DNA from: an uncultured Candidatus Saccharibacteria bacterium
Lineage (GTDB): Bacteria > Patescibacteriota > UBA1384 > CAILIB01 > JAUSJZ01
Reading direction: 5' to 3'
Assembly (NCBI GenBank): GCA_964421635.1
Contig: CAYQWZ010000005.1
Span: forward strand, 2,748-66,747
DNA length: 64,000 nt
This document shows positions 506-32,895 of the stretch, in pieces. Below the pieces are notes generated by a model that ran no database searches, was not told the DNA's origin, and worked only from the letters and a program-made list of their open reading frames with translations. Each line of letters starts with the position of its first letter. Within the stretch, counting starts at the first letter, position 1. The translations under genes and the position numbers were made by a program.

Positions 506-1747
506 TTACTCCTCTATTTCTACCTCAGCCGAATCCTCTAAATCTCTCACATTATTGCTGACCACAACTTGATCTCCCAGACTTACTCCAGACAACACCT
601 GCGCATCTGTGGCAGATTCAATGCCCAGCTCTACAACTGTTTTTTCAGCCCTACCGTCACGGTAAACATATACTATGTCATCGTCATCTTCAACAATAAT
701 GGCGCGAGATGGAATTGATAGAACATCGGAAACAGTTTCAATTTTAAAACTTGCTTGTCCTGAAAATCCGGCTCTAAAAGTCTTTAACGGCTTATCAATT
801 GTGATAACAACAATATAAATTTCACTACCAGTTGAGTTTAGAGTTGAAGTGCCTGACACATATTGAATTTTGCCAGAAAATGTTTCACCTGGATAAGAGT
901 CAATTTCTAAGTCAACTTCTTGACCAGCAACCAAATTAGCCACATCTGTTTCATCAACTTCAGCTTCAAATCTTAATGCGCTAGGATTAAATACGGTGAC
1001 TACATGCTGCCCTTGAGTTGTCACTTTTTGTGAAACCGCCACTAACTGACCAGAGGCGTCACGAGCTAAACTGACAACTCCTGAAATTGGAGTCAACACA
1101 GTTTTGTTATCATAGTTTTTTTGAGCAGCAGTAAGTACCGCTTCGGCAGAAGTGACAGCCTGTTCAGCCGATTTTAAATCAAGGGCATCTGGGTTTGCCT
1201 CTAAAGCTGCGTGATAAGTTTTTAAAGCTAATTCATGAGCAGTAATAGCTGCATTCCAAGCCGCTTTATTAGTCTCATTATTTGTTTGGTCATAAGCAAA
1301 ATGGGCAGCATCTCGAGCAGCTCTTGCTTGATCAACAGCCGCTTGATAGTAAGTTATATCAATATCATTTAAAACAGATTCTTTAGCTGTTTCGCGCGCC
1401 TGTTTTGTCTGTAATAAAGCTAGCTCGGCTGCTTGTACAGCAGAATTAAGAGCTTCTTCTTTGTATGAATAAAGCGCTTGACCGGCAGCCACCGCTTGGC
1501 CTTCTTGTACAAAAACTTGATCAATTTGCGCCGTTAGGGGAGCATAAACATTATTACTATCTGGGGCTTTCAGTTCACCTGAAGTAGAAATAGTTTTGGT
1601 GATTGTTTTTGTTGCCACTTTGTCTAATTCAACAATTGGCTTCTTGCCATTGCCGCCAAACACCACAAAAAGAATAATTATTACTACTAGCCAGAGCCAC
1701 CAACGCGTCTTCAAAGACTTTATTAAAGATTTAAATATTTTTTTCAT
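506..1747 (-). CDS. HlyD-family membrane fusion protein (MacA-like periplasmic adaptor)
   Basis: 413-aa ORF with N-terminal membrane anchor, long Ala/Gln-rich coiled-coil hairpin, and beta-barrel/lipoyl-like segments typical of RND/MacA MFPs; directly precedes the ABC ATPase. Confidence 0.8.
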   Translation of the reverse strand: MKKIFKSLIKSLKTRWWLWLVVIIILFVVFGGNGKKPIVELDKVATKTITKTISTSGELKAPDSNNVYAPLTAQIDQVFVQEGQAVAAGQALYSYKEEALNSAVQAAELALLQTKQARETAKESVLNDIDITYYQAAVDQARAARDAAHFAYDQTNNETNKAAWNAAITAHELALKTYHAALEANPDALDLKSAEQAVTSAEAVLTAAQKNYDNKTVLTPISGVVSLARDASGQLVAVSQKVTTQGQHVVTVFNPSALRFEAEVDETDVANLVAGQEVDLEIDSYPGETFSGKIQYVSGTSTLNSTGSEIYIVVITIDKPLKTFRAGFSGQASFKIETVSDVLSIPSRAIIVEDDDDIVYVYRDGRAEKTVVELGIESATDAQVLSGVSLGDQVVVSNNVRDLEDSAEVEIEE

Positions 1748-2119: not shown

Positions 2120-2620
2120 ATGAATACGAAAACAAAAATCTTATTAATTACAGCTGTTTTTTTAATACTAGTTTTAGCCAAACAGGCACAGGCGATATTT
2201 ATTGTTGAAAAAAGTGTCAAGAATAACATTATTCGTACGGGTGAAATTAATTTTGTGCTCAGTCCAGAAGAAGCCTGGTTAACCTCTGAAAATTTAGTGC
2301 CAGGCCAAACTATCTCTAATGAATTCACTCTCAAGAATACGGGTAGTGCCCCATTAGTAGCTACAATATCTGCAAAAAAATCTGCTGGTTATAAAAACTT
2401 ATTTGATACTTTAATTATTTCTATTAAAGATAACGAACAGCTTATATATGAAGGGCCAGCGTCTGAGATGCTTGAGGCTCAACTATTTTCAGATCCGCTA
2501 GCAGTCGATGTTGAAAAGAAATTCAGTATTCAGGCTCATTTGCCGACAGATGTTAATTCAACGGTCGATAACACCTATTCTAATTTAACTTTTGTGGTAG
2601 AGTCCAAACAAGCTGCGTAA
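2120..2620 (+). CDS. TasA/camelysin-like (Peptidase_M73 family) secreted protein
   Basis: Signal peptide ending AKQAQA, then NNIIRTGEINFVLSPEE...ENLVPGQTISNEFTLKNTGSAPLVATI, which follows the TasA N-terminal pattern (..AGTLDLS...SNLKPGDKLTKDFQFENNGS..); first gene of a tightly packed + strand operon. Confidence 0.65.
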   Translation: MNTKTKILLITAVFLILVLAKQAQAIFIVEKSVKNNIIRTGEINFVLSPEEAWLTSENLVPGQTISNEFTLKNTGSAPLVATISAKKSAGYKNLFDTLIISIKDNEQLIYEGPASEMLEAQLFSDPLAVDVEKKFSIQAHLPTDVNSTVDNTYSNLTFVVESKQAA

Positions 2621-2637
2621 TTGTATATAATAAAAAT

Positions 2638-3681
2638 GTGAAGAGAATAATTATTGTTTTATTATTGACTGTTTTTAGCAGCTCATTAGCTTCGGCTGTT
2701 GAGCAAACTAGTAGTGATAATTACATTATTGAACAACCATCTTTTTCTGGCGGTTCAAATACTAGCGATTCAGATAATTTCTCAACTCGCGGTACTGTTG
2801 GTGACACCTCAGATCTAGGACTAGAGAGTGACAATTATTCTCTTGACGCCACCGAAGCTGCTTCTCGCCAAGCTGATGTTCTGCCCAAACCAACCTTAGA
2901 GAATGATAATGATTACTTCGATAGGTTAAGAATTACTATTGATGAACAAGATAATCCTTCTGACACAAAATATGCCATTGCCATTTCTAAAGATAACTTT
3001 TCGACTTTCAGCTATGTACAGCAAGACTTAACTATAGGTTCAAGCTTGAGTAGTGAAGATTGGCTAATTTTCGCTGAACTTGGGGAAGCTGATGGAGAAT
3101 TAATTATAGGCTTAGATGAGAACACTAGTTACAAAGTAAGGGTGGCTGCTTTTCATGGTGATTTCTCAACTACTCGCTACTCCGCAACTTCAGATGAAGC
3201 TACTACTAGTTCAAGCTATTTGAGATTATCCTCAGATAAAGAAAGCTGCAGTTTGGGAACTTTAACCGAACTTGCCACCGCCACCTGCAACTACAATTTA
3301 AGTTTTTCTTCGAACTATTATGGTGGTTTAAAAATTACGACTAGTGGTTCTACACTAACTTCGGGCGGAAATAAAATTGAAGCTATTGGCTCAACCGCTG
3401 TTGCATCACAAACCGGAATAGAACAGTTCGGTTTTAACGCTAAAGCTAATTCTAATCCGGCGGTTGGTCAAGAGCCAGTCGGCAGCAACATTACTATCAA
3501 TAATCCTTTCACCACCAAAGACTTATTCGCCTTTAGTGAAAATATCGAACAAGACACATTAACCACAGATTCAATAACGGCTACTTCAACCAGCACTATT
3601 TCAATTATTGTCAACGCCGCCTCAGACACAGAGCCGGGCAGCTACCAGACAACAATAACCCACACTATTTATGCCAACTAA
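2638..3681 (+). CDS. secreted Ser/Thr-rich protein with FN3-like segment
   Basis: 347 aa, cleavable signal peptide (LASA|VEQ), very S/T/D/N-rich, segment TSYKVRVAAFHGDFST resembles fibronectin-III strands; 17 nt after previous gene. Confidence 0.7.
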   Translation: MKRIIIVLLLTVFSSSLASAVEQTSSDNYIIEQPSFSGGSNTSDSDNFSTRGTVGDTSDLGLESDNYSLDATEAASRQADVLPKPTLENDNDYFDRLRITIDEQDNPSDTKYAIAISKDNFSTFSYVQQDLTIGSSLSSEDWLIFAELGEADGELIIGLDENTSYKVRVAAFHGDFSTTRYSATSDEATTSSSYLRLSSDKESCSLGTLTELATATCNYNLSFSSNYYGGLKITTSGSTLTSGGNKIEAIGSTAVASQTGIEQFGFNAKANSNPAVGQEPVGSNITINNPFTTKDLFAFSENIEQDTLTTDSITATSTSTISIIVNAASDTEPGSYQTTITHTIYAN

Positions 3682-4528
3682 ATTGGTTGTCTTTTTTTTA
3701 TTAATCCTTCTTTTTCCATCTTTAGCTTGGGGGGCAGATTTGTCTGTGTCGCCAGCAAAACAGCATTTAACAATTAGTTCAACCCAAAACGAGCCAGTTA
3801 AATTAATTGTCAGAAATCACAGCACCAAAAACACCACCATAAATATTGAGACTCGAAATTTAGATAGTAGTTCTACTAGCAGAGTAGAAGAGTGGGTGAC
3901 CTATAGCAATAACAATTTTAATTTAAATGCCAATAGCAGTCAGGAAGTTATGGCTGAAATTAATCCTTCCAATAGTGTGCCAAGCGGCGCATACAGTATA
4001 GGATTAGTAGTTTCGGCCTCTGACCCATCGGTAGAAAGTCAGAACGCAACCGTCGATACTCAAATTACGAGCACAATCTTAATCAATTATTTTTCGAATA
4101 GTGACACCTCCGCCGGAATTGAGGGGATTGACTTAAATACTGAAGCACTAGAAATATCTAGCTATAAAATAAATAATAATTATTTTTGGCCGCAAGCCTT
4201 GCGAGTCGAATTTAATTTAAAAAATAATTCTAAATTCTTTGGAGTGCCACACGGCTTGGTTCGTCTTACTAATTCCAAAGGTGAAGTCGTCAAACAGGCA
4301 AAAATTAATATTTCAGCAAAAGAATTAATGCCCGAACAAACTGCCGAATATTATGTCGACATTAGTAAACCATTTTTCACTACAGGTAATTTCAACATCG
4401 AAATTATCGCTAGCTTGCAAGAAGAGAAGCCAGCAGTGATGCAAAAAAATGTTTTTCTTTTTCCGTGGGTGGGAGTTTTGATACTCTTGCTTATTTACGG
4501 AGGATTCAAACTAAAAGCAAAACACTAA
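3671..4528 (+). CDS. secreted protein with C-terminal membrane anchor (N-terminus weakly TasA-like: ADLSVSPAKQ)
   Basis: 285 aa; signal peptide LAWG|ADLSVSP; C-terminal hydrophobic stretch followed by KLKAKH; overlaps upstream gene by 11 nt. Confidence 0.65.
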   Translation: MPTKLVVFFLLILLFPSLAWGADLSVSPAKQHLTISSTQNEPVKLIVRNHSTKNTTINIETRNLDSSSTSRVEEWVTYSNNNFNLNANSSQEVMAEINPSNSVPSGAYSIGLVVSASDPSVESQNATVDTQITSTILINYFSNSDTSAGIEGIDLNTEALEISSYKINNNYFWPQALRVEFNLKNNSKFFGVPHGLVRLTNSKGEVVKQAKINISAKELMPEQTAEYYVDISKPFFTTGNFNIEIIASLQEEKPAVMQKNVFLFPWVGVLILLLIYGGFKLKAKH

Positions 4529-5098
4529 ATGTCAGCTAAAATAATAGTAGTGAAAAAAATATTTTATGGTGCAATCTGTTCACTGCTAGTTCTCGGTTTT
4601 GCTTTATCAGCTCAAGCCGACAACATCCAGATAACTACCTTAGTGGACACTTCCGGCTCCACCTATAATGCCAGTTTAATTATTGAACCTGAGGCAGTAC
4701 TAGCAGATGGTCAAAGCCAGGCAGTCGTCTTAATATTCATGCGTAACGCTCAGAACGAACCGGTGGCGAATAAAACAATATCCTTAACTACTTCTAGACC
4801 CGATAAGGATGACATTGAAGAAACTCACCCGACAACCGGAGTCGACGGAGTAGCTTATTTTAAATTAAAATCTCAGTTTGAAGGCGACACTATTGTTACG
4901 GCTAGTTTAGGTGAAACCAAAGTCGGAGAAGGGCAGCTAAACTTTTTTAAAAAAAGCCGAGTCTTCTTTTTAACTAATAGTCCTTTAATGGCGGCGGCCG
5001 GATTTTTTGTCATTTTTGAGCTGCTCCGCTTCATATGGTTGTTATTCTTTAAAAAACGCCAACACCAAAAGCAAAAAGAGTGGGTACAGAAATATTAA
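4529..5098 (+). CDS. Big-1 (invasin/intimin-like Ig) domain secreted protein with C-terminal TM anchor
   Basis: Signal peptide; central segment ADGQSQAVVLIFMRNAQNEPVANKTISLTTS...VDGVAYFKLKSQFEGDTIVTASLGE matches bacterial Ig-like group 1 domains; start abuts previous stop. Confidence 0.65.
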   Translation: MSAKIIVVKKIFYGAICSLLVLGFALSAQADNIQITTLVDTSGSTYNASLIIEPEAVLADGQSQAVVLIFMRNAQNEPVANKTISLTTSRPDKDDIEETHPTTGVDGVAYFKLKSQFEGDTIVTASLGETKVGEGQLNFFKKSRVFFLTNSPLMAAAGFFVIFELLRFIWLLFFKKRQHQKQKEWVQKY

Positions 5099-5180: not shown

Positions 5181-8100
5181 ATGAAAGGAGGGCAAATAAC
5201 CAGAGAGTTTAAGTTGTGGAGGCCCTTATCCCGAGTTTTTGTTTGGGCGGTTTTAGCGTTGGTAGTTTTTGTACCTTTGCAGGCCGAGTCTGCCATTAAT
5301 AAACAGCTACAATTTTCAGGCAAACTTACCAAGTCAGACAAAACTAATGTTACTAATGGAGCGTACGGTTTTAAATTTGAAATTTTTAGCGTTGCTTCTG
5401 GCGGCTCAGCTTTATGGACAGAAACTTGGAATGGCTCAAGTTCAAAAATAACAGTCACCGACGGATTATTCTCAATTGCTTTGGGCACTTACACAGATTT
5501 AAGTGTCGTAGATTTTAATAGCTCAAGCTTATATTTAGCAATTTCGTTTGACCCTGGAAACGACGGTACATACGAAGAACTATTTACTACCCGCATCCGT
5601 CTGACCTCAAGCCCTTACTCCCTAAACTCTGACAAACTTGATGGAAAGGATGAAAGTGAATTCGCCGATTTATCCGAAGCCGAAACCATTTCTAATGACT
5701 GGTTATTTGGCGAGGATATCCGTTTTGGTGATGCTGACAATAGTAATTACATCGGTTTTCAGGCTCCAGCCAATATTTCTACGAATGTCATTTGGACTTT
5801 GCCAAGTGTTGACGGCACAGTTAATCAAGTATTAAAGACTGACGGTAATGGCACTCTTAGCTGGGCCGATAGCAGTAGTGGCACTATTGATTTAACTTCC
5901 GAAGTTACGGGCACATTGCCTATTACTAACGGCGGTACCGGCCAAATTACAGCTGCCAATGCTATTAATGCACTCTTGCCAACCCAAACTGGAAATAGTG
6001 GCAAGTATTTAACCACTAACGGTTCAGTCTCCAGCTGGGCCGCAGTTGCTGGAGGAGGCGCTAGTAATATAGCCGACCTAGACGATGTCACTATATCTTC
6101 CGTGGCAGACAATGAAATTTTTCAGTATGATAATGGAACATCAAAATGGATTAATCAAACTTTTGCTGAAGCTGGTATCGCCGTCACGGGTGATCTGCAC
6201 GATGCGGTGACAGTAGTAGACAGCGACACTATTGACTTCACTCTCTCCACGCAACAGATTACCGCAATCGTCATCGCCGACTCCATCGACGATACTCACA
6301 TTGATTGGGGCTCGGGTGCCAACCAAGTTGATTTGGACGACATTCCCGATGGCACTTCATACGAACGAGTGGCGGCCGCGCAGTTAAGTTCTGGAATCTA
6401 TATTGATGCTTCAACTGCCACTAAAGGTATCGCCTCTTTCACTGCCGCCGACTTTGATGCTGCCTCGGGTGTAATCTCTATTGACTACGCTAACGGGACC
6501 GCAGCTTCAGGTGCAGCTAAAGGTTTCTTAACCGCTGCCGACTGGACTACCTTTAATAGTAAACAAGCAGCTGGTAGCTACATCACTTCGTTTACCCTAG
6601 CCGGTACCTCGGGCTCCAACCAGACCATCTCTCAAGGAGACACTTTAACCATTGCTGCCGGTACAGATATCACCACTACAGGCGGAGCAACAGATATAAT
6701 AACTGTCGCTAACTCTTCTACTTTGGCTACTGTTACTGGTAGAGGAGCTACGACAACCACCTTGGTTAACTTAGATGGTGGTATTGCCGTTGACACCTCG
6801 AACTTCACGGTTTCTGGAACAACTGGAGCGACTGCTATCACGGCTGTTAACGCCGCTTCTGGCTCCCTAAACGCTCTTGGTCTGTCTGGAACACTGGGCA
6901 TTTTTAACGGCACCGACACCTTCCGTGGCATCTATCTTAACTACACCAACGCCAACCACACTGGTTCATCCAATTATGTTTACGGCTTAGATATTGCGGC
7001 TATTACTGCTGATGCGGAAGCTACAGAGCGGGCTATTAATGTTGGAGTTGGCTGGGATGTTGGATTATACATTGCTGATGCTGCTACCTATTCCCTGCAG
7101 TTAGCTTCCACAGATGGTGATGCCGCTTCGGGTATTACATTTGGAACAGATACCAACCTCTACCGCTCCGCTGCTAATACTCTAAAAACAGATGACGCGC
7201 TAATTGTTACCGGACACACTACCTTTGAAGGAGTCACCTCTACAGGTGCTACGGGTACTGGCAAACTAGTTTACGGCACTTCACCTACTTTAGCTACTCC
7301 TATCTTAGGAGCAGCTACCTACACTACCTTATCTGGTGGTAATATAACTAATTCAGCTTTAACTTCGGGTAGACTTACTTACGCCGGTACTTCAGGAATC
7401 CTTCAAGACTCTGCCAATATGACATTTGGCGCTACCTATGGATTAACTCTAGCTGCTGGTTCTACTTCTGGTTTACAGCTATCTTCAACGGCTGGTACGG
7501 CGGCGGGTGGAATCCTTCTTGGTACGGACACTAACATTTATCGCTCCGCTGCTAATATTTTAAAGACAGATGATTCCTTTACTGTTGGTACTAATCTTGT
7601 AGTAACAGGGTCCACAACTTTAGATACATCTTTGACTGGAATGGTTAAAGCTTCTTCGGGGGTTATCTCAGCCGCGTCAGCTGGAACAGATTATCTTGTT
7701 CCCGGCGGTACATTGTTTACCCTAGCCGGTACCTCAGGCTCTAACCAGACTATCTCGCAAGGGAACACTCTAACCATCGCTGCCGGAACAGATATTACTA
7801 CTACTGGTGGGGCTACGGATACTGTAACTGTTGCTAACTCATCTACTCTAGCTACGGTTACAGGTAGAGGAGCTACTACTACCACTTTAACTAATCTTGA
7901 TGGCGGTATTGCTATAGATACGGACAACTTTACCGTTTCGGGGACTTCCGGTGCCCTAGCCATTGCTGGCGCCATGACTACCGGAACTGCTGCTAACATC
8001 TCTTTTGATAGTGCCGGACAGACTGGCGCTTTAACTGGCCTAAATGTAGATTTTTCCAATATCACAGCTGACGGCACCAATACTGTTTATGGCATTCATG

Positions 8101-11100
8101 TTCAAGATCCAGTTTCTAATACAGCTAGTACCGAATACGGAATCTACCAAGCTGGCACTAACTGGGATTATGGTGGCTATTTTGAAGACGATCTTCGTAC
8201 AACCGGCATGGACATTCAACAAGCTAGTGCTGATCCGCAAATTCACTTTGATTTCTACTCCTCCGGAGCAAGCGATAACACTGGTGAAACAGTCGCCGGC
8301 ACTGGCGCTGATGATGCTTCTATGGGAACAATTGCTTGGTCTAACCCCAGCAGAGTTACGGCTGATGATGGGTCACGAGCACAGTGTATCTTTTCTGGAG
8401 TCAGCACCTGTCACTATCTCAAAGCAACAAACTTTGGTTTTAGCATTCCCGAAGGCTCATCTATCATCGGCATAGTGGCAACAGTAGAAGGATTGTGTCC
8501 GGTATGGTCAGGTGCGGCTACATGGGAATCTGTACGACTAGTTGATGGAGACGGGACTATTGTGGGAGATGATAAATCCCCGGATACTGCTTTTCCTTCT
8601 GGCGAAGATACAAAAACTGATTTTGGTGCATCCGATAACACCTGGAGCGCCTCTCTAGATAGAAATGACATCAATGATTCAGATTTTGGTTTTGTTTTTA
8701 CAGGTTCAAGATCAGGAGGACTTAACTCCCAACTGTTAATTGATGCTATGTACGTCACGGTCTATTATTCCAGCGCCGAACAAGACTACGACTGGACCAT
8801 GGGTATTGATGAAGATGCCGGTGGAATATTTGCTATCTCCAGAAGCGCCGGTACGCTGGGTAGTAATAACGCTCTCACAATCGATTCAAACAGCGACGTC
8901 ACCATCTCTTCCGACTTATCTGTCACGGACACCTTGACCGTAAACGGAGTCAACGCCGCTGGTGGTTCTGCTGATGCCACCACACTAACGGGCACTCTGG
9001 GTGCTATGGATGGTTCTGATACTTACCGCGGCTTGTATCTCAATTACACCAACGCTGACCACACCGGTGCCAGTAATGTTTTTTATGGATTAGATATTGC
9101 CGGTATTACTGCCGACGCCGACGCCACCGAATATGCAATGAATATTGGAGCCGGCTGGGATGCTGGTCTTTATATCGCTGATGGTGCCACTTATTCCTTA
9201 CAGTTAGCCTCCACTGATGGCGATGCGGCTTCAGGAATAACTTTTGGTACAGACACTAACCTCTACCGCAGTGCTGCTGACACCCTGAAAACAGATGATG
9301 CCTTAATTGTTACTGGCCATACCACCTTTGAGGGAGTTACTTCTACAGGTGCTACTGGTACCGGAAAGTTAGTCTACGACAACACACCCACTTTAATTAC
9401 CCCTGCCCTGGGAGCAGCCACCTACACTACCTTATCTGGTGGTAATATAACCAATTCAGCTTTAACTTCGGGTAGAGTTACTTATGCTGGCACAGCCGGA
9501 ATCCTGCAAGACTCTGCCAACATGACATTTGATACCACAAACGGTCTAAAGCTGGCCGCCGGAAGCGCATCCGCTCTTCAACTCACCTCAACCGCTGGAA
9601 CCTCAGTGGGTGGAGTTATGTTTGGTGCAGATACTAATTTATATCGTGTCTATGATACGGAAGCCCGATTACAAACAGATAATCCTCTAAATGTTGGTGG
9701 AACAATACAAATAAATCCATTTATCAGTGGTGGTGGTTATGTTTCTACCTACTCCTATCGTGATGATACAGGTGGTGGTGGACTTTCAACAAATGCCGCT
9801 AGAGGCACAAGGGCCACCCCAACTGTAATTCACGATGACGACTATTTAGGTAACTTTAACTTTAATGGTTACGATGGAAATTCTTATGAAATAGGTGGTC
9901 AGTTTAGATTTATGGTTGATGGAACAGTTAGCGATGGGGTTGTACCGGGAAGGTTTGAAGTAAATACAACTACTTCTGGAGGAGTATCAACTTTAGGACT
10001 AACTTTAGATAGTGCCCAAAAGCTCTGGCTTGGTAGCACCTTAGACACCAACCTTTATCGCGGTGCCGCTAATGAATTAACAACCGATGATCTCCTCTCC
10101 TTCAGCTCGACTAAAGCTGCCAACGCCGTCGACTTCAAATCCTACAAACCAGATAGCGCTGGCGGAGCTCAGTTCTTATTTAACACTTCAGCCGCAATTT
10201 CATCCGCCACCATCTTTGCTGTACAAGAGAATGGTACAAACGCATTTCTAATTGATAAAGATAATCAAGTCTTAATGCCCGCTGTTTATAACGACACTGT
10301 TGGTGGCACTAATCGCGACTTATTTATAGATAACACTGGTAAACTGGGATATGTCGTCTCTTCAGAAAGATATAAAGAGAACATAGTAGCATTGCAGAAC
10401 AATAACACTGACTGGCTTTATGACCTACGACCAGTATCCTTTGATTATAAAGATAAAAATCTCGGCGTAGATCAAATTGGTTTAATAGCCGAAGAGGTAG
10501 CCGAAATATTCCCTAATATTGTTAGCTACAGCCGTGAAAATCCAAATCTGGCTGAGACAGTTAGTTACAGTAAATTAGTTGTGCCGTTGCTTAACGAAGT
10601 ACAAAATCTTAACCAAGACTTGTCTACTGTAGATATTGCAGTAGCACAAATTCAGTCGGACATTATTGAAAGACTGACCACTCAGACTGCTATCCTTAAT
10701 ACCATTGAAAGCTCTGCCGGTAAAGATTTGGTACTCAAATCAAGTTCAGGCAAAGTTATTGTTGATTCTTCTATTGAGGTAAACGGCAAAGTGATCTTTC
10801 ATAATGATCTGACTGTCCACGGAGAAATCGCTGGTGTTAGTATTGACCTTGAAGAAAATAAATCGACTGGTCGAGGTACAATAGTCAATAACGAAGATAA
10901 GGTATATATCAAAACAGATATTATTGAGCCAGACGACAAGGTACTGCTAACACCTATTATCACAAATAAAAACGAAACTGACTTACAGGGTAACAGCGTT
11001 CAGCTTTACAGAGGTATTATAGATGAGGGCATCGGATTTTGGGTACACGTCATTAGCAGTCGCGATTTAGAGAAAGAATTGCCGTTCGATTGGCTAATAG

Positions 11101-11108
11101 TCAAATAG
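5181..11108 (+). CDS. giant secreted repeat protein (1975 aa) with C-terminal tail-fibre-type intramolecular chaperone (Peptidase_S74-like) domain
   Basis: Single uninterrupted ORF; N-terminal signal peptide (..VFVPLQAESA); long G/T/A/S-rich beta-repeat region with large internal duplications; a lectin-like segment (~8.25-8.77 kb); near the C-terminus GYVVSSERYKENIVALQNNNTDWLYDLRPVSFDYKDKN..IGLIAEEVAEIFPNIV..SYSKLVVPLLNEVQNL matches the endosialidase/T5 L-shaped tail-fibre chaperone motif (S-x-x-R-x-K-x-N-I ... PV-x-Y/F-x-YK ... G-x-IAQEV ... Y-x-x-L-x-P-L-L), followed by a predicted coiled-coil. Confidence 0.9.
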   Translation: MKGGQITREFKLWRPLSRVFVWAVLALVVFVPLQAESAINKQLQFSGKLTKSDKTNVTNGAYGFKFEIFSVASGGSALWTETWNGSSSKITVTDGLFSIALGTYTDLSVVDFNSSSLYLAISFDPGNDGTYEELFTTRIRLTSSPYSLNSDKLDGKDESEFADLSEAETISNDWLFGEDIRFGDADNSNYIGFQAPANISTNVIWTLPSVDGTVNQVLKTDGNGTLSWADSSSGTIDLTSEVTGTLPITNGGTGQITAANAINALLPTQTGNSGKYLTTNGSVSSWAAVAGGGASNIADLDDVTISSVADNEIFQYDNGTSKWINQTFAEAGIAVTGDLHDAVTVVDSDTIDFTLSTQQITAIVIADSIDDTHIDWGSGANQVDLDDIPDGTSYERVAAAQLSSGIYIDASTATKGIASFTAADFDAASGVISIDYANGTAASGAAKGFLTAADWTTFNSKQAAGSYITSFTLAGTSGSNQTISQGDTLTIAAGTDITTTGGATDIITVANSSTLATVTGRGATTTTLVNLDGGIAVDTSNFTVSGTTGATAITAVNAASGSLNALGLSGTLGIFNGTDTFRGIYLNYTNANHTGSSNYVYGLDIAAITADAEATERAINVGVGWDVGLYIADAATYSLQLASTDGDAASGITFGTDTNLYRSAANTLKTDDALIVTGHTTFEGVTSTGATGTGKLVYGTSPTLATPILGAATYTTLSGGNITNSALTSGRLTYAGTSGILQDSANMTFGATYGLTLAAGSTSGLQLSSTAGTAAGGILLGTDTNIYRSAANILKTDDSFTVGTNLVVTGSTTLDTSLTGMVKASSGVISAASAGTDYLVPGGTLFTLAGTSGSNQTISQGNTLTIAAGTDITTTGGATDTVTVANSSTLATVTGRGATTTTLTNLDGGIAIDTDNFTVSGTSGALAIAGAMTTGTAANISFDSAGQTGALTGLNVDFSNITADGTNTVYGIHVQDPVSNTASTEYGIYQAGTNWDYGGYFEDDLRTTGMDIQQASADPQIHFDFYSSGASDNTGETVAGTGADDASMGTIAWSNPSRVTADDGSRAQCIFSGVSTCHYLKATNFGFSIPEGSSIIGIVATVEGLCPVWSGAATWESVRLVDGDGTIVGDDKSPDTAFPSGEDTKTDFGASDNTWSASLDRNDINDSDFGFVFTGSRSGGLNSQLLIDAMYVTVYYSSAEQDYDWTMGIDEDAGGIFAISRSAGTLGSNNALTIDSNSDVTISSDLSVTDTLTVNGVNAAGGSADATTLTGTLGAMDGSDTYRGLYLNYTNADHTGASNVFYGLDIAGITADADATEYAMNIGAGWDAGLYIADGATYSLQLASTDGDAASGITFGTDTNLYRSAADTLKTDDALIVTGHTTFEGVTSTGATGTGKLVYDNTPTLITPALGAATYTTLSGGNITNSALTSGRVTYAGTAGILQDSANMTFDTTNGLKLAAGSASALQLTSTAGTSVGGVMFGADTNLYRVYDTEARLQTDNPLNVGGTIQINPFISGGGYVSTYSYRDDTGGGGLSTNAARGTRATPTVIHDDDYLGNFNFNGYDGNSYEIGGQFRFMVDGTVSDGVVPGRFEVNTTTSGGVSTLGLTLDSAQKLWLGSTLDTNLYRGAANELTTDDLLSFSSTKAANAVDFKSYKPDSAGGAQFLFNTSAAISSATIFAVQENGTNAFLIDKDNQVLMPAVYNDTVGGTNRDLFIDNTGKLGYVVSSERYKENIVALQNNNTDWLYDLRPVSFDYKDKNLGVDQIGLIAEEVAEIFPNIVSYSRENPNLAETVSYSKLVVPLLNEVQNLNQDLSTVDIAVAQIQSDIIERLTTQTAILNTIESSAGKDLVLKSSSGKVIVDSSIEVNGKVIFHNDLTVHGEIAGVSIDLEENKSTGRGTIVNNEDKVYIKTDIIEPDDKVLLTPIITNKNETDLQGNSVQLYRGIIDEGIGFWVHVISSRDLEKELPFDWLIVK
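6590..9660 (+). repeat. large intragenic protein-level repeats inside the giant gene (unit ~6590-7715 repeated at ~7715-8060; unit ~6890-7560 repeated at ~8995-9640)
   Basis: Near-identical amino-acid stretches (e.g. FTLAGTSGSNQTISQG(D/N)TLTIAAGTDITTTGGATD..; YLNYTNA(N/D)HTG...LYRSAA(N/D)TLKTDDALIVTGHTTFEGVTSTGATGTGKLVY) encoded with many synonymous nucleotide differences. Confidence 0.85.
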
Positions 11109-11129: not shown

Positions 11130-12800
11130 ATGCTTTTTTGGTACACTTTTTTTTCGTTGATTGTCTTCTCCCCCATCCTTTATGTTTATGGATTCGGAGG
11201 ATTTGAAGCAGCTAAAATTACTTTCTTTTTAATTACAGGCTCATTAATGCTCATCGCTTTCGTCAAAAACAAAAAGAATAATAATGACTCTATAATTATT
11301 AATCGACCGCTTACCACTTACTCCTTAATAGCTTTGGCAAGCTATATTACTGTTAGGTCTTTCTTTTGTGAAGGATTAAACTTGGCTTGGCTTGGCTCTT
11401 ATCTAACTCATCTTGGATCCTTCGTTTGGCTGGTTTTTGTTTTGCTGATAATTGCTTTAATAAATTTGAGAGGAAATGAAAAGATTAAAAAAACTATTAT
11501 TCTATCGGCTTTTATATCTTTAGTAGCGGTTTTAATATCTGTTGCTCTGCAACACTTCGGCTTGATGGGAGGGGAGTGGCACATCTTTGACGATCCAACA
11601 CGGGGAAGAACTCTTTTCGGTTCAATTGGCAGCTCTACTTATTTAGGCATAGTAATTACCATGTTGACATTTATAAGCCTACCTCTGATTCGTGCTTCTA
11701 ATAATATTTTCCGATACTTAGCTATCACTGTTTTAGCCATTGCAACCATTACAGTCTTTCTAACAAAATCTATTACTGGTATAGCTATTTTAGTGCTAGG
11801 CCTCGCCCTTCATTTACTTAAGGCTCCACAGTATATAAATAAATTTATTTTTATTTCACTGTTCATTATAATTTCTATATCGCCCTTTGTTTTATTATCA
11901 CCTAAAATGCAATCTTCATTATCTTCGGTTGCTCCCTCTTTAGTAGATAGAGCCTATATTTGGCAAAGCTCTATTGACTCGCTTGATAATTCAAAAACAA
12001 TTTTGTTTGGAGCCGGCTCAGAACATTTTCAATTTCTATATGATCAGCATTTTCCTCAAGAAAGAATCGACCTGCCTTCTGTTACTGAAGAGGAACCGCA
12101 TAATATAATTTTAGAAATTCTAACTGAATGGGGTTTAGTAGGATTATTACTATTTCTTACTTTCTCATACTATTTATTACAAGAAAGTAAGCTTAACAAA
12201 ACCGCCACTTTGAACTTGTTACTACTATGGTTGCTACTACAATTTAATTTTTTGTCTGCCAATCTGCTTGTAATATCTTTAATACTAATTAAATTAGCCT
12301 TTGAGATAAAATCTCAAAAGAGTATCATCCTTAGAACAAAGTTGCTTCTTCCCCTTAGCGCTCTAATATTTGTTTTATCTTCAGTAATTGGGTTGGGTAC
12401 TATTGCTTCATCTGTTGCTAATCATTTTGGAGGAGTGAGTTCAGCTAAATTAGATTTCAATAAATCTGTCAGTATTTTCGAACAAGCTACAAAATATTCT
12501 ATATTTGATAAATCCTTTACTTTACTTCAGTTGGCCGAAGCCAGAGCCAACCGAGCCATATTAAATAATGACTATAGTGATTATGCCCAGACCGAAGAAA
12601 TTTTACTACAAGCTCTCAAAGGAAATCCTAGTGCGCGGCAATATGCCATCGCTATTCGTATCATTGAGGCATACGCCGCGCACGACAACAACGCTTCACG
12701 AGAGCTATCTCGCACCGTAAATTTATTCGCAAAAAAATGGGGTAGCCATCCTAAACACCAAGATATAATTAAGAGCTTTAAAAAGGTTGGTTGGTTATAA
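11130..12800 (+). CDS. O-antigen ligase family (Wzy_C) polytopic membrane protein with C-terminal TPR-like soluble domain; candidate O-oligosaccharyltransferase
   Basis: About 10 TM helices; Wzy_C signature region ..GAGSEHFQFLY...PHNIILEILTEWGLVGLLLFL; C-terminal ~150 aa helical repeat region; 21 nt downstream of giant gene. Confidence 0.7.
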   Translation: MLFWYTFFSLIVFSPILYVYGFGGFEAAKITFFLITGSLMLIAFVKNKKNNNDSIIINRPLTTYSLIALASYITVRSFFCEGLNLAWLGSYLTHLGSFVWLVFVLLIIALINLRGNEKIKKTIILSAFISLVAVLISVALQHFGLMGGEWHIFDDPTRGRTLFGSIGSSTYLGIVITMLTFISLPLIRASNNIFRYLAITVLAIATITVFLTKSITGIAILVLGLALHLLKAPQYINKFIFISLFIIISISPFVLLSPKMQSSLSSVAPSLVDRAYIWQSSIDSLDNSKTILFGAGSEHFQFLYDQHFPQERIDLPSVTEEEPHNIILEILTEWGLVGLLLFLTFSYYLLQESKLNKTATLNLLLLWLLLQFNFLSANLLVISLILIKLAFEIKSQKSIILRTKLLLPLSALIFVLSSVIGLGTIASSVANHFGGVSSAKLDFNKSVSIFEQATKYSIFDKSFTLLQLAEARANRAILNNDYSDYAQTEEILLQALKGNPSARQYAIAIRIIEAYAAHDNNASRELSRTVNLFAKKWGSHPKHQDIIKSFKKVGWL

Positions 12801-13473: not shown

Positions 13474-14694
13474 CTATGCGCTATCTACATACAATTCAGC
13501 TAAAGCCCCCGCTACATCTCTGTGCTCACCAATAAGAGGAAAATGATGCATTTCAAAGTATGGTTTAGGATTAGCCTCAACTATATATAGTTTTTGCTTT
13601 TTATAGGAAACTCCTAAATCTTGAGCGATAATATCGAGCCCCACTATTGGCACCTTCAGCAGCGTCGCCACTCGCTCAAACAACGCTCTGTTGTGCGGAT
13701 GAGTAGTTGAGGTAACATCGTAAATATCGGCGGCTGAAGCCAAATTAATTTTGTTAGACAAATTTTTTCTCTCCCCTTTTTTGAGTACCGTAGCTAAGTT
13801 ACAGTTACTCTCAGCCAGTTTTTTCAATAACGAATTATTTATCTCCACTATATGCATAGGATGATTTCGAGAATTAACCGGACCACGATATTTTTCGTTA
13901 TTCTTTTTTTCAATTAAAGCAGCAATGGTACTTCTGCCGTCTCCCTCAATTGAGGATGGCATTCTTTTAGCTACCGCTATTTGACTAAAACCAACCATAG
14001 TAGCGCGATAGTCGAATCCTTCTACAAACTCTTCTACTAAAACTTCAAGCGAAATTAGAAAAACAGATTTTATGGCCGCTTTTACCTGTTTGGCTGACTT
14101 AATATTGACAAAAGTGTGCCGCGACAAAGAACCGTCCGCGGGCTTAATAACAATAGATTTATTCTGACCTAGAAGCTGGTTAGCGTATCTTAGCGCCGGA
14201 CTAAAAAAGATAAACTTAGCGCCGGGCACAAACGGCAGCTGATGCTCATACAGTAATTTTTTAAACTCCATTTTATCGTCATAAATGAAGGAACCGACCG
14301 CCAAAGCGCTGTTCGACGGTATTGTTTCAAACAACATTCTTCTGCTATCACTTTGCAACTCGCATATTTGCATTGGGAAAACCCCGAAAAGATAAAATGT
14401 AGAGACCATCATTCCGCGCTTGGCGCAGGCTAGAGCAAAAAGTTTGGTACGCAAATGAACCCGACTATTTCCTATTGGCATTTTGAGCACTAATATTCGG
14501 CTGAGATAGCCAAATGTTACAAAAAATAAAGTAATATAAGAGCTCAAAAACAGATAGAATCTTCTAAATCTTTTCGCTAGCGGAATAATTGGCCAAAAGA
14601 AAAAATAGAACATCCTTGAAAAAGAAAGGATGATTCTTTCAGTTGAATGCAAATAATTAGCCTTTATTGGCTCACAGTGCAAACATTGTTTCAT
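13474..14694 (-). CDS. membrane-anchored ATP-grasp domain protein (RimK/D-Ala-D-Ala-ligase-like fold)
   Basis: N-terminal TM helices followed by ATP-grasp-like core (..IVIKPADGSLSRHTFV.., ..LYIVEANPKPYFEMHH..). Confidence 0.55.
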   Translation of the reverse strand: MKQCLHCEPIKANYLHSTERIILSFSRMFYFFFWPIIPLAKRFRRFYLFLSSYITLFFVTFGYLSRILVLKMPIGNSRVHLRTKLFALACAKRGMMVSTFYLFGVFPMQICELQSDSRRMLFETIPSNSALAVGSFIYDDKMEFKKLLYEHQLPFVPGAKFIFFSPALRYANQLLGQNKSIVIKPADGSLSRHTFVNIKSAKQVKAAIKSVFLISLEVLVEEFVEGFDYRATMVGFSQIAVAKRMPSSIEGDGRSTIAALIEKKNNEKYRGPVNSRNHPMHIVEINNSLLKKLAESNCNLATVLKKGERKNLSNKINLASAADIYDVTSTTHPHNRALFERVATLLKVPIVGLDIIAQDLGVSYKKQKLYIVEANPKPYFEMHHFPLIGEHRDVAGALAELYVDSA

Positions 14695-28871: not shown

Positions 28872-29924
28872 TTATTGACCAGTAATATTTTTTAAGATCG
28901 CCTCAGATTCATTTTCAGTAGCTAGTCTTGGTTGGCTATTGTGCTCAATAATCACGGAAATAAATTGATAATCTAGCAGCTCTTCGCCCTTCATCTGGTA
29001 TAATCCTATTACTCCCTCACTTGTTTTGCGCGACCAATTCTGATCAAAAACGAAATTTCCGTGCGAATACATTATTAGCCTGTCTTTGTATTGCTCCATA
29101 ATTTGCACCCAATGCGCATGATTCCCCAAAACTAAGTCGGCACCCGCATCTATAGCCGCATGCGCAATTTCAATTTGCCGCGCAGTTGGCTTATGAGTAT
29201 ACTCGTTGCCCCAATGAAACATAATAATTACGGCATCTGCTAGCTTGTCGGCAGCAGCAATTTCGGCCCGCACAATATTTAAATCAACATTTTTGACCTT
29301 TTTCTGATTAGCCGTCTCAACATCGTTATAGGCCAAAAAAGCGTACTTGGCACCATTGATTTCTCGAACTAAATTTTCTTCATCCTTAACCCCAATAGCT
29401 GCAATATTATTTTCTTGAAGGATTTCAATGGTTTCGCTCAATCCGGCCGTGCCTTTATTTTCAGCATGATTATTGGCAACAGATGCTATATCTACTCCCG
29501 TTTTTGCCAAGGCCGGCGCGTGCTGAAGATTGCCACAAAAGATCATTCCTTCACTTGTAAGTGGGCAGTTAGCAATTAAAGGTGATTCTAAATTGATAAA
29601 AGTCAGGTCAGCCGAATTAAGCAGTTCGGCCGTTTTTTGATAGGGCCAGCTAAAATTATTTTTATTTGAAGTTAACACATTAACATATCTACCAAGCATA
29701 ATATCGCCAGTTACTAGAAGCTTGATTGGTTTTATTTCAGCTTTTTTGGTAGCAATAGATAAATTTTTTATCGCTGGTCTGGTCGACTCTGGTGAACCAA
29801 TCTCTTGAAATAAAGATGCAAAAGAGAAAAGTTGGTCATATCTATCTATTTTTTGAGTGTATAAATAGATACTAAAAGAGTAAATTATTAATACGGCAGC
29901 TGTTATGGTTAAATATGGTTTCAT
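28872..29924 (-). CDS. CapA/PGA_cap-family metallophosphatase-like protein
   Basis: Signal-anchor; LLVTGDIMLGRYVN, ADLTFINLESP, FHWGNEY and GNHAHW motifs typical of CapA/YwtB calcineurin-like proteins. Confidence 0.7.
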   Translation of the reverse strand: MKPYLTITAAVLIIYSFSIYLYTQKIDRYDQLFSFASLFQEIGSPESTRPAIKNLSIATKKAEIKPIKLLVTGDIMLGRYVNVLTSNKNNFSWPYQKTAELLNSADLTFINLESPLIANCPLTSEGMIFCGNLQHAPALAKTGVDIASVANNHAENKGTAGLSETIEILQENNIAAIGVKDEENLVREINGAKYAFLAYNDVETANQKKVKNVDLNIVRAEIAAADKLADAVIIMFHWGNEYTHKPTARQIEIAHAAIDAGADLVLGNHAHWVQIMEQYKDRLIMYSHGNFVFDQNWSRKTSEGVIGLYQMKGEELLDYQFISVIIEHNSQPRLATENESEAILKNITGQ

Positions 29925-31671: not shown

Positions 31672-31688
31672 GGTTGGTAGGTCTTGTC

Positions 31689-32883: not shown

Positions 32884-32895
32884 ACTCTCTTTCTA

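What the first reader, a model, noticed from the sequence alone, without database searches (positions are those of the whole stretch)
11130..12800. Wzy_C (O-antigen ligase / PglL-PilO-type) enzyme immediately downstream of Ser/Thr-rich fibre proteins: possible protein O-glycosylation
The Wzy_C family includes O-antigen ligases and also the O-oligosaccharyltransferases that glycosylate pilins and other surface proteins. Here the gene directly follows extremely S/T-rich secreted proteins in the same operon and carries an extra C-terminal TPR-like domain. No LPS or O-antigen genes are evident in this window, which is consistent with a reduced-genome organism that may lack classical LPS. The protein could therefore glycosylate the fibre.
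Basis: inference. Interest (0 to 1): 0.55.

Follow-up and report, generated by a model that had tools for sequence, protein, structure and literature searches.

The report
Fibre-linked glycan transferase in ultrasmall bacteria
A membrane enzyme of the O-antigen-ligase family, carrying an outward-facing protein-binding domain, always sits right behind a giant phage-tail-fibre-like surface protein in one group of ultrasmall (CPR) bacteria that lack LPS, so it most likely attaches sugars to that fibre, although this has not been shown.

Summary

The gene starts 21 nt after a 1975-aa secreted, S/T-enriched, tail-fibre-like protein. That protein follows a Pam-type pilus operon, which marks a Patescibacteria (CPR, monoderm) genome.

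The protein belongs to a rare subfamily, with 9 representatives among 1.84 billion. Every member lies directly downstream of a homologous fibre gene, while the pilin and the other neighbours vary. The nearest out-group relative sits in an epimerase/GT2/phosphoglycosyltransferase operon, so the wider family probably uses lipid-linked glycans.

Best reading (about 0.5): a fibre-dedicated O-oligosaccharyltransferase, laid out like TfpO-pilin or PglS-ComP and built like PglS or WsfB. It is not a PglL-class member, because it has no PglL_A or Wzy_C_2 domain.

Acceptor and activity are inferred, not shown. No donor-pathway genes lie nearby, and one canonical arginine is missing. The main rival is a TacL-like glycolipid or wall-polymer ligase. 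I rate it a new variant of a known kind, of moderate interest.

The parts
11130..12800 (+). Gene for the 556-aa Wzy_C / WaaL-fold membrane enzyme with a C-terminal TPR domain (the finding itself)
11556..11633 (+). Extracytoplasmic loop aa 143-168 with the subfamily-invariant motif F-D-D-P-x-R158-G-R160-x-L-x-G-S-I-G
   Evidence: Invariant in all 9 subfamily members. R160 is Arg in 66/73 relatives; the D-D-P-x-R158 part is subfamily-specific.
11730..12158 (+). Pfam Wzy_C match (aa 201-343). It includes position 215, where the canonical T-x-S-R arginine is absent.
   Evidence: Arg at this column in 55/64 out-group relatives and 0/9 subfamily members. Mapped to PglL R224 / E. coli WaaL R215 through the 9rmk_A alignment and PMC3643930.
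11901..12104 (+). Large acidic extracytoplasmic loop between TM9 and TM10 (aa 258-325) carrying R274, W278, G294xG296, E320-E321 and the catalytic H324. H324 begins the H-[NS]-x9-G-x2-G motif, which runs on to G338 in TM10 (nt 12099-12143).
   Evidence: R274, G294, G296, H324 and G335 are invariant in 73 relatives. R274 and H324 align to PglL R298/H349 and to WaaL. Loop charge is KR 3 / DE 10.
12345..12446 (+). 13th transmembrane helix (aa 406-439), which carries the C-terminal domain to the outside
   Evidence: AF2 secondary structure; basic loops 49-59, 352-356 and 391-405 fit the positive-inside rule; the outside location itself is inferred
12447..12797 (+). C-terminal three-repeat TPR-fold domain (aa 440-556), inferred to be extracytoplasmic
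5181..11108 (+). Gene for the 1975-aa secreted, S/T-enriched, tail-fibre-like protein; proposed acceptor
   Evidence: Peptidase_S74 6.4e-11; weak Bdello_MAT_N hit; S+T 22.9%; homologous fibre directly upstream of every subfamily member
5262..5501 (+). Fibre N-terminal domain (aa 28-107), similar to the N-terminal domain of Bdellovibrio mosaic adhesive trimer fibres
   Evidence: NCBIfam NF053851 8.4e-8, below its cut-off; conserved at 27-54% identity in the fibres of L005, L008, L010, L014 and L015
10359..10523 (+). Intramolecular chaperone (Peptidase_S74) domain of the fibre (aa 1727-1781). About 190 further residues follow, ending in FDWLIVK.
   Evidence: the C-terminal region is conserved in all loci
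2120..2620 (+). 166-aa secreted protein (weak camelysin/Peptidase_M73-like) that heads the locus
   Evidence: homologues of 32-39% identity upstream of the fibre in L005, L008 and L010
2638..3681 (+). 347-aa Pam-type pilin (S+T 27.4%); alternative acceptor
   Evidence: NCBIfam CPR_Pam_pilin_C 2.8e-26, 92.4 bits against a cut-off of 55; no homologue in the other loci
3671..4528 (+). 285-aa protein with a signal peptide and C-terminal TM helix; possibly a PamC/D-like membrane-anchored chaperone
   Evidence: Sequence; layout matches the description in bioRxiv 10.64898/2026.03.03.709456; weak similarity to the L015 270-aa protein; the role is inferred
4529..5098 (+). 189-aa Big_1 (Ig-like) protein with a C-terminal TM helix; possible membrane anchor
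   Evidence: Pfam Big_1 1.5e-13; 52% identical homologue in L010 at the same position

Best explanation
The gene encodes a WaaL-fold (Wzy_C) glycan transferase of a monoderm Patescibacteria (CPR) bacterium. It most likely works as a dedicated O-oligosaccharyltransferase for the giant tail-fibre-like surface protein encoded immediately upstream.

Proposed mechanism, all steps inferred:
1. A short glycan is built on undecaprenyl pyrophosphate by enzymes encoded elsewhere in the genome, then flipped to the outer face of the membrane.
2. The enzyme binds the pyrophosphate with Arg274, Arg160 and possibly the subfamily-specific Arg158.
3. His324 acts as the base on the outer face.
4. The glycan is transferred en bloc to Ser/Thr hydroxyls of the fibre as it emerges from the Sec translocon.
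5. The outward-facing three-repeat TPR domain, brought outside by the 13th TM helix, recruits or holds the fibre polypeptide.

Shown here: family, fold, conserved catalytic residues, gene pairing and host type. The topology is inferred from the model and loop charges. Inferred only: the donor, the acceptor and the role of the TPR domain.
For: 2. His324 and Arg274 are invariant in 73 relatives. They align to PglL H349/R298 and E. coli WaaL H338/R288. The equivalent His is required in all tested O-OTases (PMC9829042).
3. The layout of 13 TM helices plus a ~115-aa extracytoplasmic C-terminal domain matches that described for the protein O-OTase PglS (PMC12800693). WaaL is shorter (chain 403-413 aa) and matches only the TM core. 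A C-terminal TPR motif is reported for PglL and for the Gram-positive S-layer O-OTase WsfB (PMC2943079).
4. The subfamily is rare: 9 representatives in 1.84 billion. In 9 of 9 the gene lies 12-51 nt downstream of a homologous fibre gene on the same strand. Meanwhile the Pam pilin, the VIT1 gene and other neighbours come and go.
5. Dedicated O-OTases (TfpO/PilO, TfpM, PglS) are typically encoded next to their target in the same orientation (PMC3643930; PMC12645811).
6. The host is monoderm, so the WaaL acceptor lipid A-core should not exist.
7. The nearest out-group relative sits in an epimerase / GT2 / Bac_transf / Wzy_C-TPR operon, a minimal Und-PP-glycan pathway.
8. O-linked extra density on a CPR surface filament (PamA Ser356) has been seen with no enzyme assigned.
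9. The enzyme evolves fast (28-34% identity) compared with its neighbours VIT1, holin_4_2 and YdjM (50-62%), as does the mosaic fibre.
Against: - There is no direct evidence for any glycan on the fibre.
- Sequence and fold cannot separate protein OTases from lipid or glycan ligases (PMC3643930). The subfamily profile scores 9rmk_A (probably PglL) and WaaL about equally: 26.6 against 25.3 bits.
- There are no PglL_A or Wzy_C_2 domains.
- No glycosyltransferase, phosphoglycosyltransferase or flippase lies within the window or consistently within 10 kb in the related loci.
- The canonical T-x-S-R arginine (E. coli WaaL R215) is missing in all 9 members.
- The whole region is syntenic among these related genomes, so part of the adjacency may be inherited rather than functional.
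- One shorter protein with the same C-terminal region (L023) has no Wzy_C gene downstream.
Confidence: 0.5

Rival explanations
1. It is a cell-envelope glycoconjugate ligase, like pneumococcal TacL or WaaL. It would move a polymer from undecaprenyl pyrophosphate onto a membrane glycolipid or another glycan, building a surface polymer. The fibre might use that polymer for anchoring, or might merely neighbour the gene.
For: The best structural match is WaaL itself. O-antigen-ligase-family enzymes do ligate teichoic acid chains to glycolipid in monoderm bacteria (TacL; PMC5727136). The out-group relative P0011 sits in a glycan-assembly operon with no obvious protein target. WaaL and OTases cannot be told apart by sequence.
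Against: In 9 of 9 cases the gene is paired with a fibre gene and never with glycan-assembly genes. The extra TM helix and extracytoplasmic TPR domain are features reported for protein OTases. TPR folds usually bind peptides.
Confidence: 0.22
2. It is a protein O-oligosaccharyltransferase, but its acceptor is not (or not only) the fibre. It would act on Pam-type pilins or many secreted S/T-rich proteins, as general PglL systems do, and the adjacency to the fibre would be incidental.
For: The window carries a 27.4% S/T Pam-type pilin 7.4 kb upstream on the same strand. PamA of Ca. Mycosynbacter amalyticus bears an unidentified modification on Ser356. PglL-type enzymes have many substrates.
Against: The pilin has no homologue in the other eight loci that carry the enzyme, whereas the fibre is always there. 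The Pam pilus paper reports no ligase-like gene in pam neighbourhoods.
Confidence: 0.13
3. It is a Wzy-type polymerase that joins lipid-linked repeat units of a surface polysaccharide.
For: The Pfam family PF04932 takes its name from the Wzy O-antigen polymerase. From my own recollection, not checked here, it also includes polymerases of monoderm bacteria such as TuaE-like proteins.
Against: No wzx, wzz or glycosyltransferase genes lie nearby in any locus. The structural match is to the ligase WaaL. The TPR domain and the fibre pairing would be left unexplained.
Confidence: 0.06
4. It is a catalytically inactive membrane dock or chaperone that holds or assembles the fibre through its TPR domain.
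For: One canonical Arg is lost in the whole subfamily. The TPR domain and the strict pairing would suit a scaffold.
Against: His324, Arg274, Arg160, the G-x-G motif and the acidic residues at 320-321 are strictly kept across members only 26-34% identical. This argues for a working active site.
Confidence: 0.04

Closest known systems
TfpO (PilO), TfpM and PglS: pilin-dedicated O-oligosaccharyltransferases of Pseudomonas, Acinetobacter and Moraxella
   Same: Wzy_C enzymes with an essential conserved His. The gene lies next to its target surface-filament gene in the same orientation. PglS is described with 13 TM helices, a ~110-aa periplasmic C-terminal domain (438-548) and proposed key residues R159, R271/R278 and H324. 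The protein here has R158/R160, R274, H324 and a domain at 440-556.
   Different: The target would be a 1975-aa tail-fibre-like trimeric adhesin, not a type IV pilin. The host is a monoderm CPR bacterium. The C-terminal domain is a TPR fold with no Wzy_C_2 or PglL_A signature. Activity is untested.
WsfB (Paenibacillus alvei) and WsaB (Geobacillus stearothermophilus): S-layer protein O-oligosaccharyltransferases
   Same: Monoderm hosts; a Wzy_C domain; WsfB has a C-terminal TPR motif; an abundant surface protein is glycosylated outside the membrane (PMC2943079).
   Different: Those genes lie in or near S-layer glycan (slg) clusters with glycosyltransferases and transporters. Here there is no glycan cluster, only the target-like fibre gene.
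WaaL O-antigen ligase (Cupriavidus metallidurans, PDB 7TPG/7TPJ)
   Different: WaaL is shorter (chain 403-413 aa) and aligns only to the TM core, so it shows no counterpart of the 13th helix and TPR domain. It transfers O-antigen to lipid A-core, which a monoderm CPR cell should not make. Only 12-13% identity.
PglL (Neisseria general O-OTase; PDB 9rmk_A 'Oligosaccharyltransferase' carries the PglL motif residues at the published numbering)
   Same: The subfamily profile matches it at E 1.9e-5 and the wider family profile at 1e-27 over nearly the full length. R298/H349 equivalents are conserved. A C-terminal TPR motif has been reported for PglL.
   Different: It lacks PglL_A (H400/E404/P406) and the PglL_B Q178/N180 residues. 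It also lacks the R224 equivalent. PglL is usually not linked to one target gene.
TacL, the pneumococcal lipoteichoic acid ligase
   Same: An O-antigen-ligase-family enzyme working on the outer face of the membrane in a monoderm bacterium (PMC5727136).
   Different: Its acceptor is a glycolipid. I did not check whether TacL has a TPR domain or lies next to a fibre-type gene.
Bdellovibrio mosaic adhesive trimer (MAT) fibres and the 'tail fibre-like protein' next to pam operons (comparison for the upstream fibre)
   Same: Weak similarity to the MAT N-terminal domain. Phage-type intramolecular chaperone domain. A tail-fibre-like gene is reported to co-localise with pam operons across CPR. MAT fibres recognise prey (PMC10769870).
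   Different: The MAT hit is below the NCBIfam cut-off. No glycosylating partner is mentioned in the pam paper. I did not check the MAT paper for one.

Membership tests
Wzy_C / O-antigen-ligase superfamily (PF04932, WaaL fold) | Pfam PF04932 match above the gathering score | tested here: met
   59.6 bits against a cut-off of 31.7, E 3.9e-16
Wzy_C / O-antigen-ligase superfamily (PF04932, WaaL fold) | Polytopic core with a large extracytoplasmic loop before TM10; WaaL-like 3D fold | tested here: met
Wzy_C / O-antigen-ligase superfamily (PF04932, WaaL fold) | Catalytic His in the H-[NSQ]-x9-G-x2-G motif, and the loop Arg (E. coli WaaL H338, R288) | tested here: met
   H324-N-x9-G335-x2-G338 and R274; both residues 73/73 in relatives
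Wzy_C / O-antigen-ligase superfamily (PF04932, WaaL fold) | Second functional Arg (E. coli WaaL R215 / PglL R224, the T-x-S-R motif) | tested here: not met
   Ile at position 215. Arg in 0/9 subfamily members against 55/64 out-group relatives. K/R two residues earlier in 7/9, and the subfamily-specific R158 could compensate; that is untested.
WaaL proper (LPS O-antigen ligase) | A lipid A-core acceptor exists (diderm host with an LPS pathway); gene lies in an LPS core/O-antigen locus | tested here: not met
   No LPS genes among the window ORFs scanned. The Pam pilin domain marks a CPR genome, and Patescibacteria are monoderm. The rest of the genome was not available.
PglL / PglS class O-oligosaccharyltransferases | PglL_A (PF15864) and Wzy_C_2 (PF11846) domains beside Wzy_C | tested here: not met
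   Only Wzy_C at E <= 0.01. Neither domain appears among the families listed for the 73 relatives. PglL H400/E404/P406 are not conserved in the alignment.
PglL / PglS class O-oligosaccharyltransferases | 13 TM helices plus an extracytoplasmic C-terminal domain forming a cleft with the catalytic loops | tested here: inconclusive
   13 helices and a C-terminal domain are present, and the outside location follows from topology and loop charge. The domain is a TPR fold, and its spatial relation to the active site could not be measured.
Target-linked O-OTases (TfpO/PilO, TfpM, PglS-ComP) | Gene adjacent to and co-oriented with the acceptor gene, conserved across relatives | tested here: met
   Fibre gene directly upstream in 9/9 subfamily representatives, gaps 12-51 nt
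Target-linked O-OTases (TfpO/PilO, TfpM, PglS-ComP) | Acceptor is a type IV pilin or pilin-like protein | tested here: not met
   The neighbour is a tail-fibre-like protein with a Peptidase_S74 chaperone domain. The only pilin nearby is a Pam-type, donor-strand pilin.
Any protein O-oligosaccharyltransferase | En bloc transfer of an Und-PP-linked glycan to Ser/Thr/Tyr of a protein | not testable with these tools
   Needs glycoproteomics or reconstitution in glyco-engineered E. coli
S-layer O-OTases (WsaB/WsfB) | Wzy_C with a TPR motif, in a monoderm host, within or near an S-layer glycan gene cluster | tested here: inconclusive
   The Wzy_C + TPR architecture and monoderm host are met. No glycan cluster lies nearby. 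No direct sequence comparison was possible.
Wzy O-antigen / EPS polymerases | Encoded with wzx, wzz and repeat-unit glycosyltransferases | tested here: not met
   None of these in the window or the related loci

The most novel reading that the evidence does not exclude
A clade of Patescibacteria has a two-gene module. A phage-tail-fibre-like host-recognition fibre is paired with its own WaaL-fold/TPR O-oligosaccharyltransferase. The enzyme would decorate the fibre with lipid-linked glycans outside the cell. If so, this would be, to my knowledge, the first protein O-glycosylation system assigned in CPR bacteria and the first en bloc glycosylation of a tail-fibre-type adhesin. It would also offer a candidate type of enzyme for the unexplained O-linked density on CPR Pam pili. 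The remodelled arginine set (loss of the R215-type Arg, gain of D-D-P-x-R158) would mark a changed donor-binding site.
Probability: 0.4. Interest if true: 0.62.

Novelty: new variant of a known kind. Interest (0 to 1): 0.45.

Why it matters
CPR bacteria live attached to host cells, and their surface filaments are thought to make first contact with the host. A 2026 cryo-EM study of the CPR Pam pilus saw an O-linked modification on the pilin and a conserved tail-fibre-like neighbour gene, but named no modifying enzyme.

A fibre-dedicated glycan transferase would give a concrete, testable candidate for how these organisms decorate their host-recognition apparatus. It would extend target-linked O-oligosaccharyltransferases from Gram-negative pilins to monoderm bacteria and to a new acceptor class. 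It could also be of interest as a compact enzyme-acceptor pair for glycoconjugate engineering.

If the enzyme instead builds a wall or lipid glycopolymer, it would still identify a conserved envelope function tied to the fibre locus.

Tried and rejected
- Word-indexed homologue search: found only the query and one 30% relative. The exhaustive HMMER search was needed.
- First AF2 run with a 2-sequence alignment was useless (pLDDT 42). It was redone with 122 sequences.
- Sequence search of the PDB with the 2-sequence profile gave only chance hits. The 73-sequence profile was swamped by TPR proteins. The 9-sequence profile gave the useful 9rmk_A and 7tpg alignments.
A degenerate DNA pattern for F/Y-D-D-P-x-R-x-R-x-L-x-G-S-I-G found one true member at a contig end (L017) and one match that is probably chance (L016, not checked further), so no taxonomy was gained.
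- Cluster look-up gave no names or accessions.
- Reverse test (fibres without the enzyme) in JGI metagenomes mostly returned unrelated proteins sharing only the intramolecular chaperone motif. Only L022 (already known) and L023 were informative.
- Phage origin rejected: no match in IMG/VR by pattern and none in GenBank phages by tblastn; the neighbours are housekeeping genes.
- Promoter/terminator scan was no better than shuffled sequence.
- Rfam and tRNA scans found only tRNA-Asn, so there is no rRNA for taxonomy.
- The AFDB fold library was unavailable.
- The pam paper's main text and the one supplementary file held as text contain no mention of ligase or glycosylation.
- The classical WaaL reading was rejected for lack of an LPS context. 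The polymerase reading was rejected for lack of wzx, wzz or GT neighbours.
Full report
**Observation**

The ORF list gives exactly 11130..12800 (+), ATG start, 556 aa. The translation is a polytopic membrane protein.

- Pfam finds one family, Wzy_C (PF04932), at E 3.9e-16 and 59.6 bits against a cut-off of 31.7, over aa 201-343. NCBIfam has no model for it.
- The gene starts 21 nt after the stop of a 1975-aa ORF (5181-11108) on the same strand.
- That protein has a signal-peptide-like N-terminus and S+T of 22.9%, reaching 37% per 100 aa. A 347-aa protein further upstream has 27.4%. Housekeeping proteins of the window have 10-11%.
- 'S/T-rich' is therefore correct; 'extremely' overstates it.

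I scanned the long ORFs across the window with Pfam or NCBIfam. None is a glycosyltransferase, flippase, sugar-nucleotide enzyme or lipid A gene.

**What organism and locus this is**

The 347-aa protein matches NCBIfam CPR_Pam_pilin_C at 2.8e-26 and 92 bits against a cut-off of 55. Pam pili were described in 2026 in Ca. Mycosynbacter amalyticus (bioRxiv 10.64898/2026.03.03.709456). That paper reports:

- They assemble by donor-strand exchange with membrane-anchored chaperones.
- A 'tail fibre-like protein' is consistently co-localised with the pam operon.
- Glycosylation and ligases are not mentioned, in the main text or in the one supplementary file held as text.

In the window, 2120-5098 reads as a compact pam-like operon:

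- a 166-aa secreted protein;
- the pilin;
- a 285-aa protein with a signal peptide and C-terminal TM helix;
- a 189-aa Big_1 protein with a C-terminal TM helix.

The 1975-aa protein is the tail-fibre-like component. It has a Peptidase_S74 intramolecular chaperone domain (6.4e-11), weak similarity to the N-terminal domain of Bdellovibrio mosaic adhesive trimer fibres (PMC10769870), and long internal duplications visible in the sequence.

A related locus comes from a MAG labelled Patescibacteria_CAILIB01. Patescibacteria are monoderm (PMC11665869).

**The protein itself**

A first model from two sequences failed. With 122 relatives the AF2 model is confident, at pLDDT 94 and pTM 0.93.

- The model has 13 long hydrophobic helices. 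A 64-residue acidic loop (aa 261-324; KR 3, DE 10) lies between helices 9 and 10.
- Six C-terminal helices span aa 443-552.
- Foldseek against the PDB gives one significant hit, the O-antigen ligase WaaL 7tpg (E 9.7e-5, prob 1.0).

Topology is inferred. The basic loops at 49-59, 352-356 and 391-405 lie on one side. The catalytic loop, the 143-168 loop and the TPR domain lie on the other, which is the outside. Helix 13 takes the C-terminal domain out.

**Active site**

- In 73 relatives, R274, G294, G296, H324 and G335 are invariant. R160 is Arg in 66/73, K29 is Lys in 61/73, Q141 is Gln in 60/73, and position 321 is D or E in 63/73.
- The sequence H324-N-x9-G335-x2-G338 is the WaaL-type motif.
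- A profile of the nine closest relatives hits two PDB sequences. One is 9rmk_A, 'Oligosaccharyltransferase', E 1.9e-5. The other is WaaL 7tpg, E 4.7e-5.
- 9rmk_A carries Q178, N180, R224, H400, E404 and P406 at exactly the numbers given for N. meningitidis PglL in PMC3643930. It is therefore probably PglL; that is my inference.
- In those alignments R274 pairs with PglL R298 (E. coli WaaL R288), and H324 pairs with PglL H349 (WaaL H338).
- The third canonical residue, WaaL R215 / PglL R224 in the T-x-S-R motif, is Arg in 55 of 64 out-group relatives but in none of the nine subfamily members. These instead share an invariant D154-D-P-x-R158 segment that is absent outside the subfamily.
- I read this as a possible swap of a pyrophosphate-binding arginine. 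I could not test it in 3D.

**Relatives and their context**

The exhaustive HMMER search of 1.84 billion representatives finds a sharp subfamily: nine full-length proteins (516-563 aa, E <= 1e-67). There is then a gap to E ~1e-19, followed by about 1,360 distant Wzy_C proteins. Members are 26-34% identical to the query.

For all nine I retrieved contigs.

- In every case the gene lies 12-51 nt downstream of a large same-strand gene (970-2570 aa where complete). The C-terminal region of that gene is homologous to the window fibre, including on contigs where only its last 95-180 residues survive.
- Fibre N- and C-termini are conserved and the middle is mosaic.
- Other neighbours vary. The Pam pilin has no homologue in the other loci. 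The 166-aa protein is present in three of them, and VIT1 in most but not all.
- Neighbouring housekeeping proteins are 50-62% identical (VIT1, holin_4_2 family, YdjM). These are therefore related genomes with partly inherited synteny, which weakens adjacency as evidence. The fibre-enzyme pair is nonetheless the only junction kept everywhere.

Among 73 relatives, all have Wzy_C and 22 have Pfam-detectable TPR repeats. PglL_A and Wzy_C_2 are not among the families listed for them.

The nearest out-group relative (P0011, Wzy_C + TPR) sits in an operon of an epimerase, GT2, a Bac_transf phosphoglycosyltransferase and Wzy_C-TPR. This is a minimal pathway for a lipid-linked glycan, and it suggests the wider family uses Und-PP-linked donors.

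Another relative, P0016, lies among housekeeping genes.

The module is not phage-borne in the collections searched.

**How it most likely works**

Published work shows the following.

- Every known O-oligosaccharyltransferase class (PglL, PglS, TfpO, TfpM) has a Wzy_C domain with an essential His (PMC9829042).
- WaaL and PglL cannot be separated by simple sequence comparison (PMC3643930).
- TfpO/PilO, TfpM and PglS are usually encoded beside their target in the same orientation.
- PglS is modelled with 13 TM helices, a periplasmic C-terminal domain (438-548) and key residues R159, R271/R278 and H324 (PMC12800693).
- PglL and the Gram-positive S-layer OTase WsfB have a C-terminal TPR motif (PMC2943079).

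The protein here has the same layout, an intact catalytic pair, a host without lipid A-core, and a conserved co-oriented partner that is a secreted, S/T-enriched surface fibre. I therefore favour, at about 0.5, a fibre-dedicated O-oligosaccharyltransferase. Und-PP-glycan made elsewhere in the genome would be bound by the arginines. His324 would activate a Ser/Thr hydroxyl. The outside TPR domain would hold the fibre chain as it leaves the Sec channel.

Only family, fold, residues, pairing and host type are shown. The topology is inferred from the model and loop charges. Donor, acceptor and TPR role are also inferred.

**Rivals**

1. A TacL- or WaaL-like ligase that attaches a polymer to a glycolipid or glycan (TacL precedent in a monoderm, PMC5727136), at about 0.22. 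It fits the fold but leaves the TPR domain and the strict fibre pairing unexplained.
2. A protein OTase whose real targets are Pam pilins or many proteins, at about 0.13. The pilin is missing from the other loci, which argues against it.
3. A Wzy polymerase, at about 0.06. There are no wzx, wzz or GT neighbours.
4. An inactive scaffold, at about 0.04. The active-site residues are too well kept for this.

**Membership**

- It is a member of the Wzy_C/WaaL-fold superfamily, with one canonical Arg not met.
- It is not WaaL proper, since there is no LPS context.
- It is not a PglL/PglS-class member, since PglL_A and Wzy_C_2 are absent.
- It resembles the target-linked OTases in gene layout but not in acceptor type.
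- It resembles WsfB in architecture but not in gene context.

**Novelty and verdict**

- The enzyme family, and the principle of an OTase encoded next to its target, are known.
- New here are the conserved pairing with a tail-fibre-like adhesin, the CPR host, the TPR variant of the C-terminal domain, and the remodelled arginine set.
- I found no published assignment of a protein O-glycosylation enzyme in Patescibacteria in the literature searched.
- I rate it a new variant of a known kind, with interest 0.45. It is a well-supported, testable hypothesis that links to a current open question, the unexplained modification on CPR pili. It rests on context and structure alone, and it concerns uncultured organisms.

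Noticed in passing
window 2120-5098 (+): A compact Pam-type pilus operon of the kind described for CPR bacteria in 2026. It comprises a 166-aa secreted camelysin-like protein, a 347-aa pilin (NCBIfam CPR_Pam_pilin_C, 92 bits), a 285-aa signal-peptide + C-terminal-TM protein (chaperone-like) and a 189-aa Big_1 + C-terminal-TM protein. Only the pilin assignment is a tool result.
   Followed up: partly
window 5181-11108 (+): The giant fibre has long internal duplications: blocks around aa 470-830 recur around 845-1000 and 1330-1490. It has a MAT-like N-terminal domain. About 190 residues follow the Peptidase_S74 chaperone domain, ending in FDWLIVK, and this end is conserved in all related loci.
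   Followed up: partly
window 11772-11774 (protein position 215) and 11589-11603 (positions 154-158): The canonical T-x-S-R arginine (E. coli WaaL R215) is absent in all 9 subfamily members but present in 55/64 out-group relatives. The D-D-P-x-R158 motif is invariant in the subfamily and absent outside it. This may be a compensatory swap.
   Followed up: partly
L018 1189-4644 (and L019): The nearest out-group Wzy_C+TPR protein (P0011) is the last gene of a GT2 / Bac_transf phosphoglycosyltransferase / Wzy_C-TPR operon, with a divergent epimerase gene beside it. This is a minimal lipid-linked glycan pathway.
   Followed up: no
L020 8001-9617 and L013/L014: A second, distant Wzy_C+TPR protein (P0016) occurs in the same two metagenome samples as the fibre-linked P0008. 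It lies next to a Trp operon and a YkuD gene. It could be a general paralogue in the same organism or belong to another organism.
   Followed up: no
L023 4612-6531: A 640-aa protein shares the whole C-terminal region of the fibre (33% identity) but is followed by a convergent gene, not by a Wzy_C gene.
   Followed up: no
window 506-1747 (-): An HlyD/YknX-type membrane-fusion protein is divergently placed upstream of the locus. It is conserved at that position in L008 and L010 (36-47% identity), with an ABC ATPase beyond it in L010.
   Followed up: no
window 13474-14694 (-): A 406-aa ATP-grasp protein matches only the central part of cyanophycin synthetase (NCBIfam 7e-57, far below the cut-off). 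It is a half-size relative of unknown role.
   Followed up: no
window 30521-34342 (-): A block of higher G+C (0.44-0.45 against ~0.38-0.40 nearby) holds minus-strand hypothetical ORFs; those scanned have no Pfam hit. One is a 346-aa protein with a motif repeated four times (G[DW]W[LI][ST]...W[VI]...R...Y/WPP[EW][IV]). This may be a foreign island.
   Followed up: no
window 28872-29924 (-): A PGA_cap (CapA-type capsule synthesis) protein, E 2.6e-62. Homologues also lie near the fibre locus in L013 and L015, beside GlmS.
   Followed up: no
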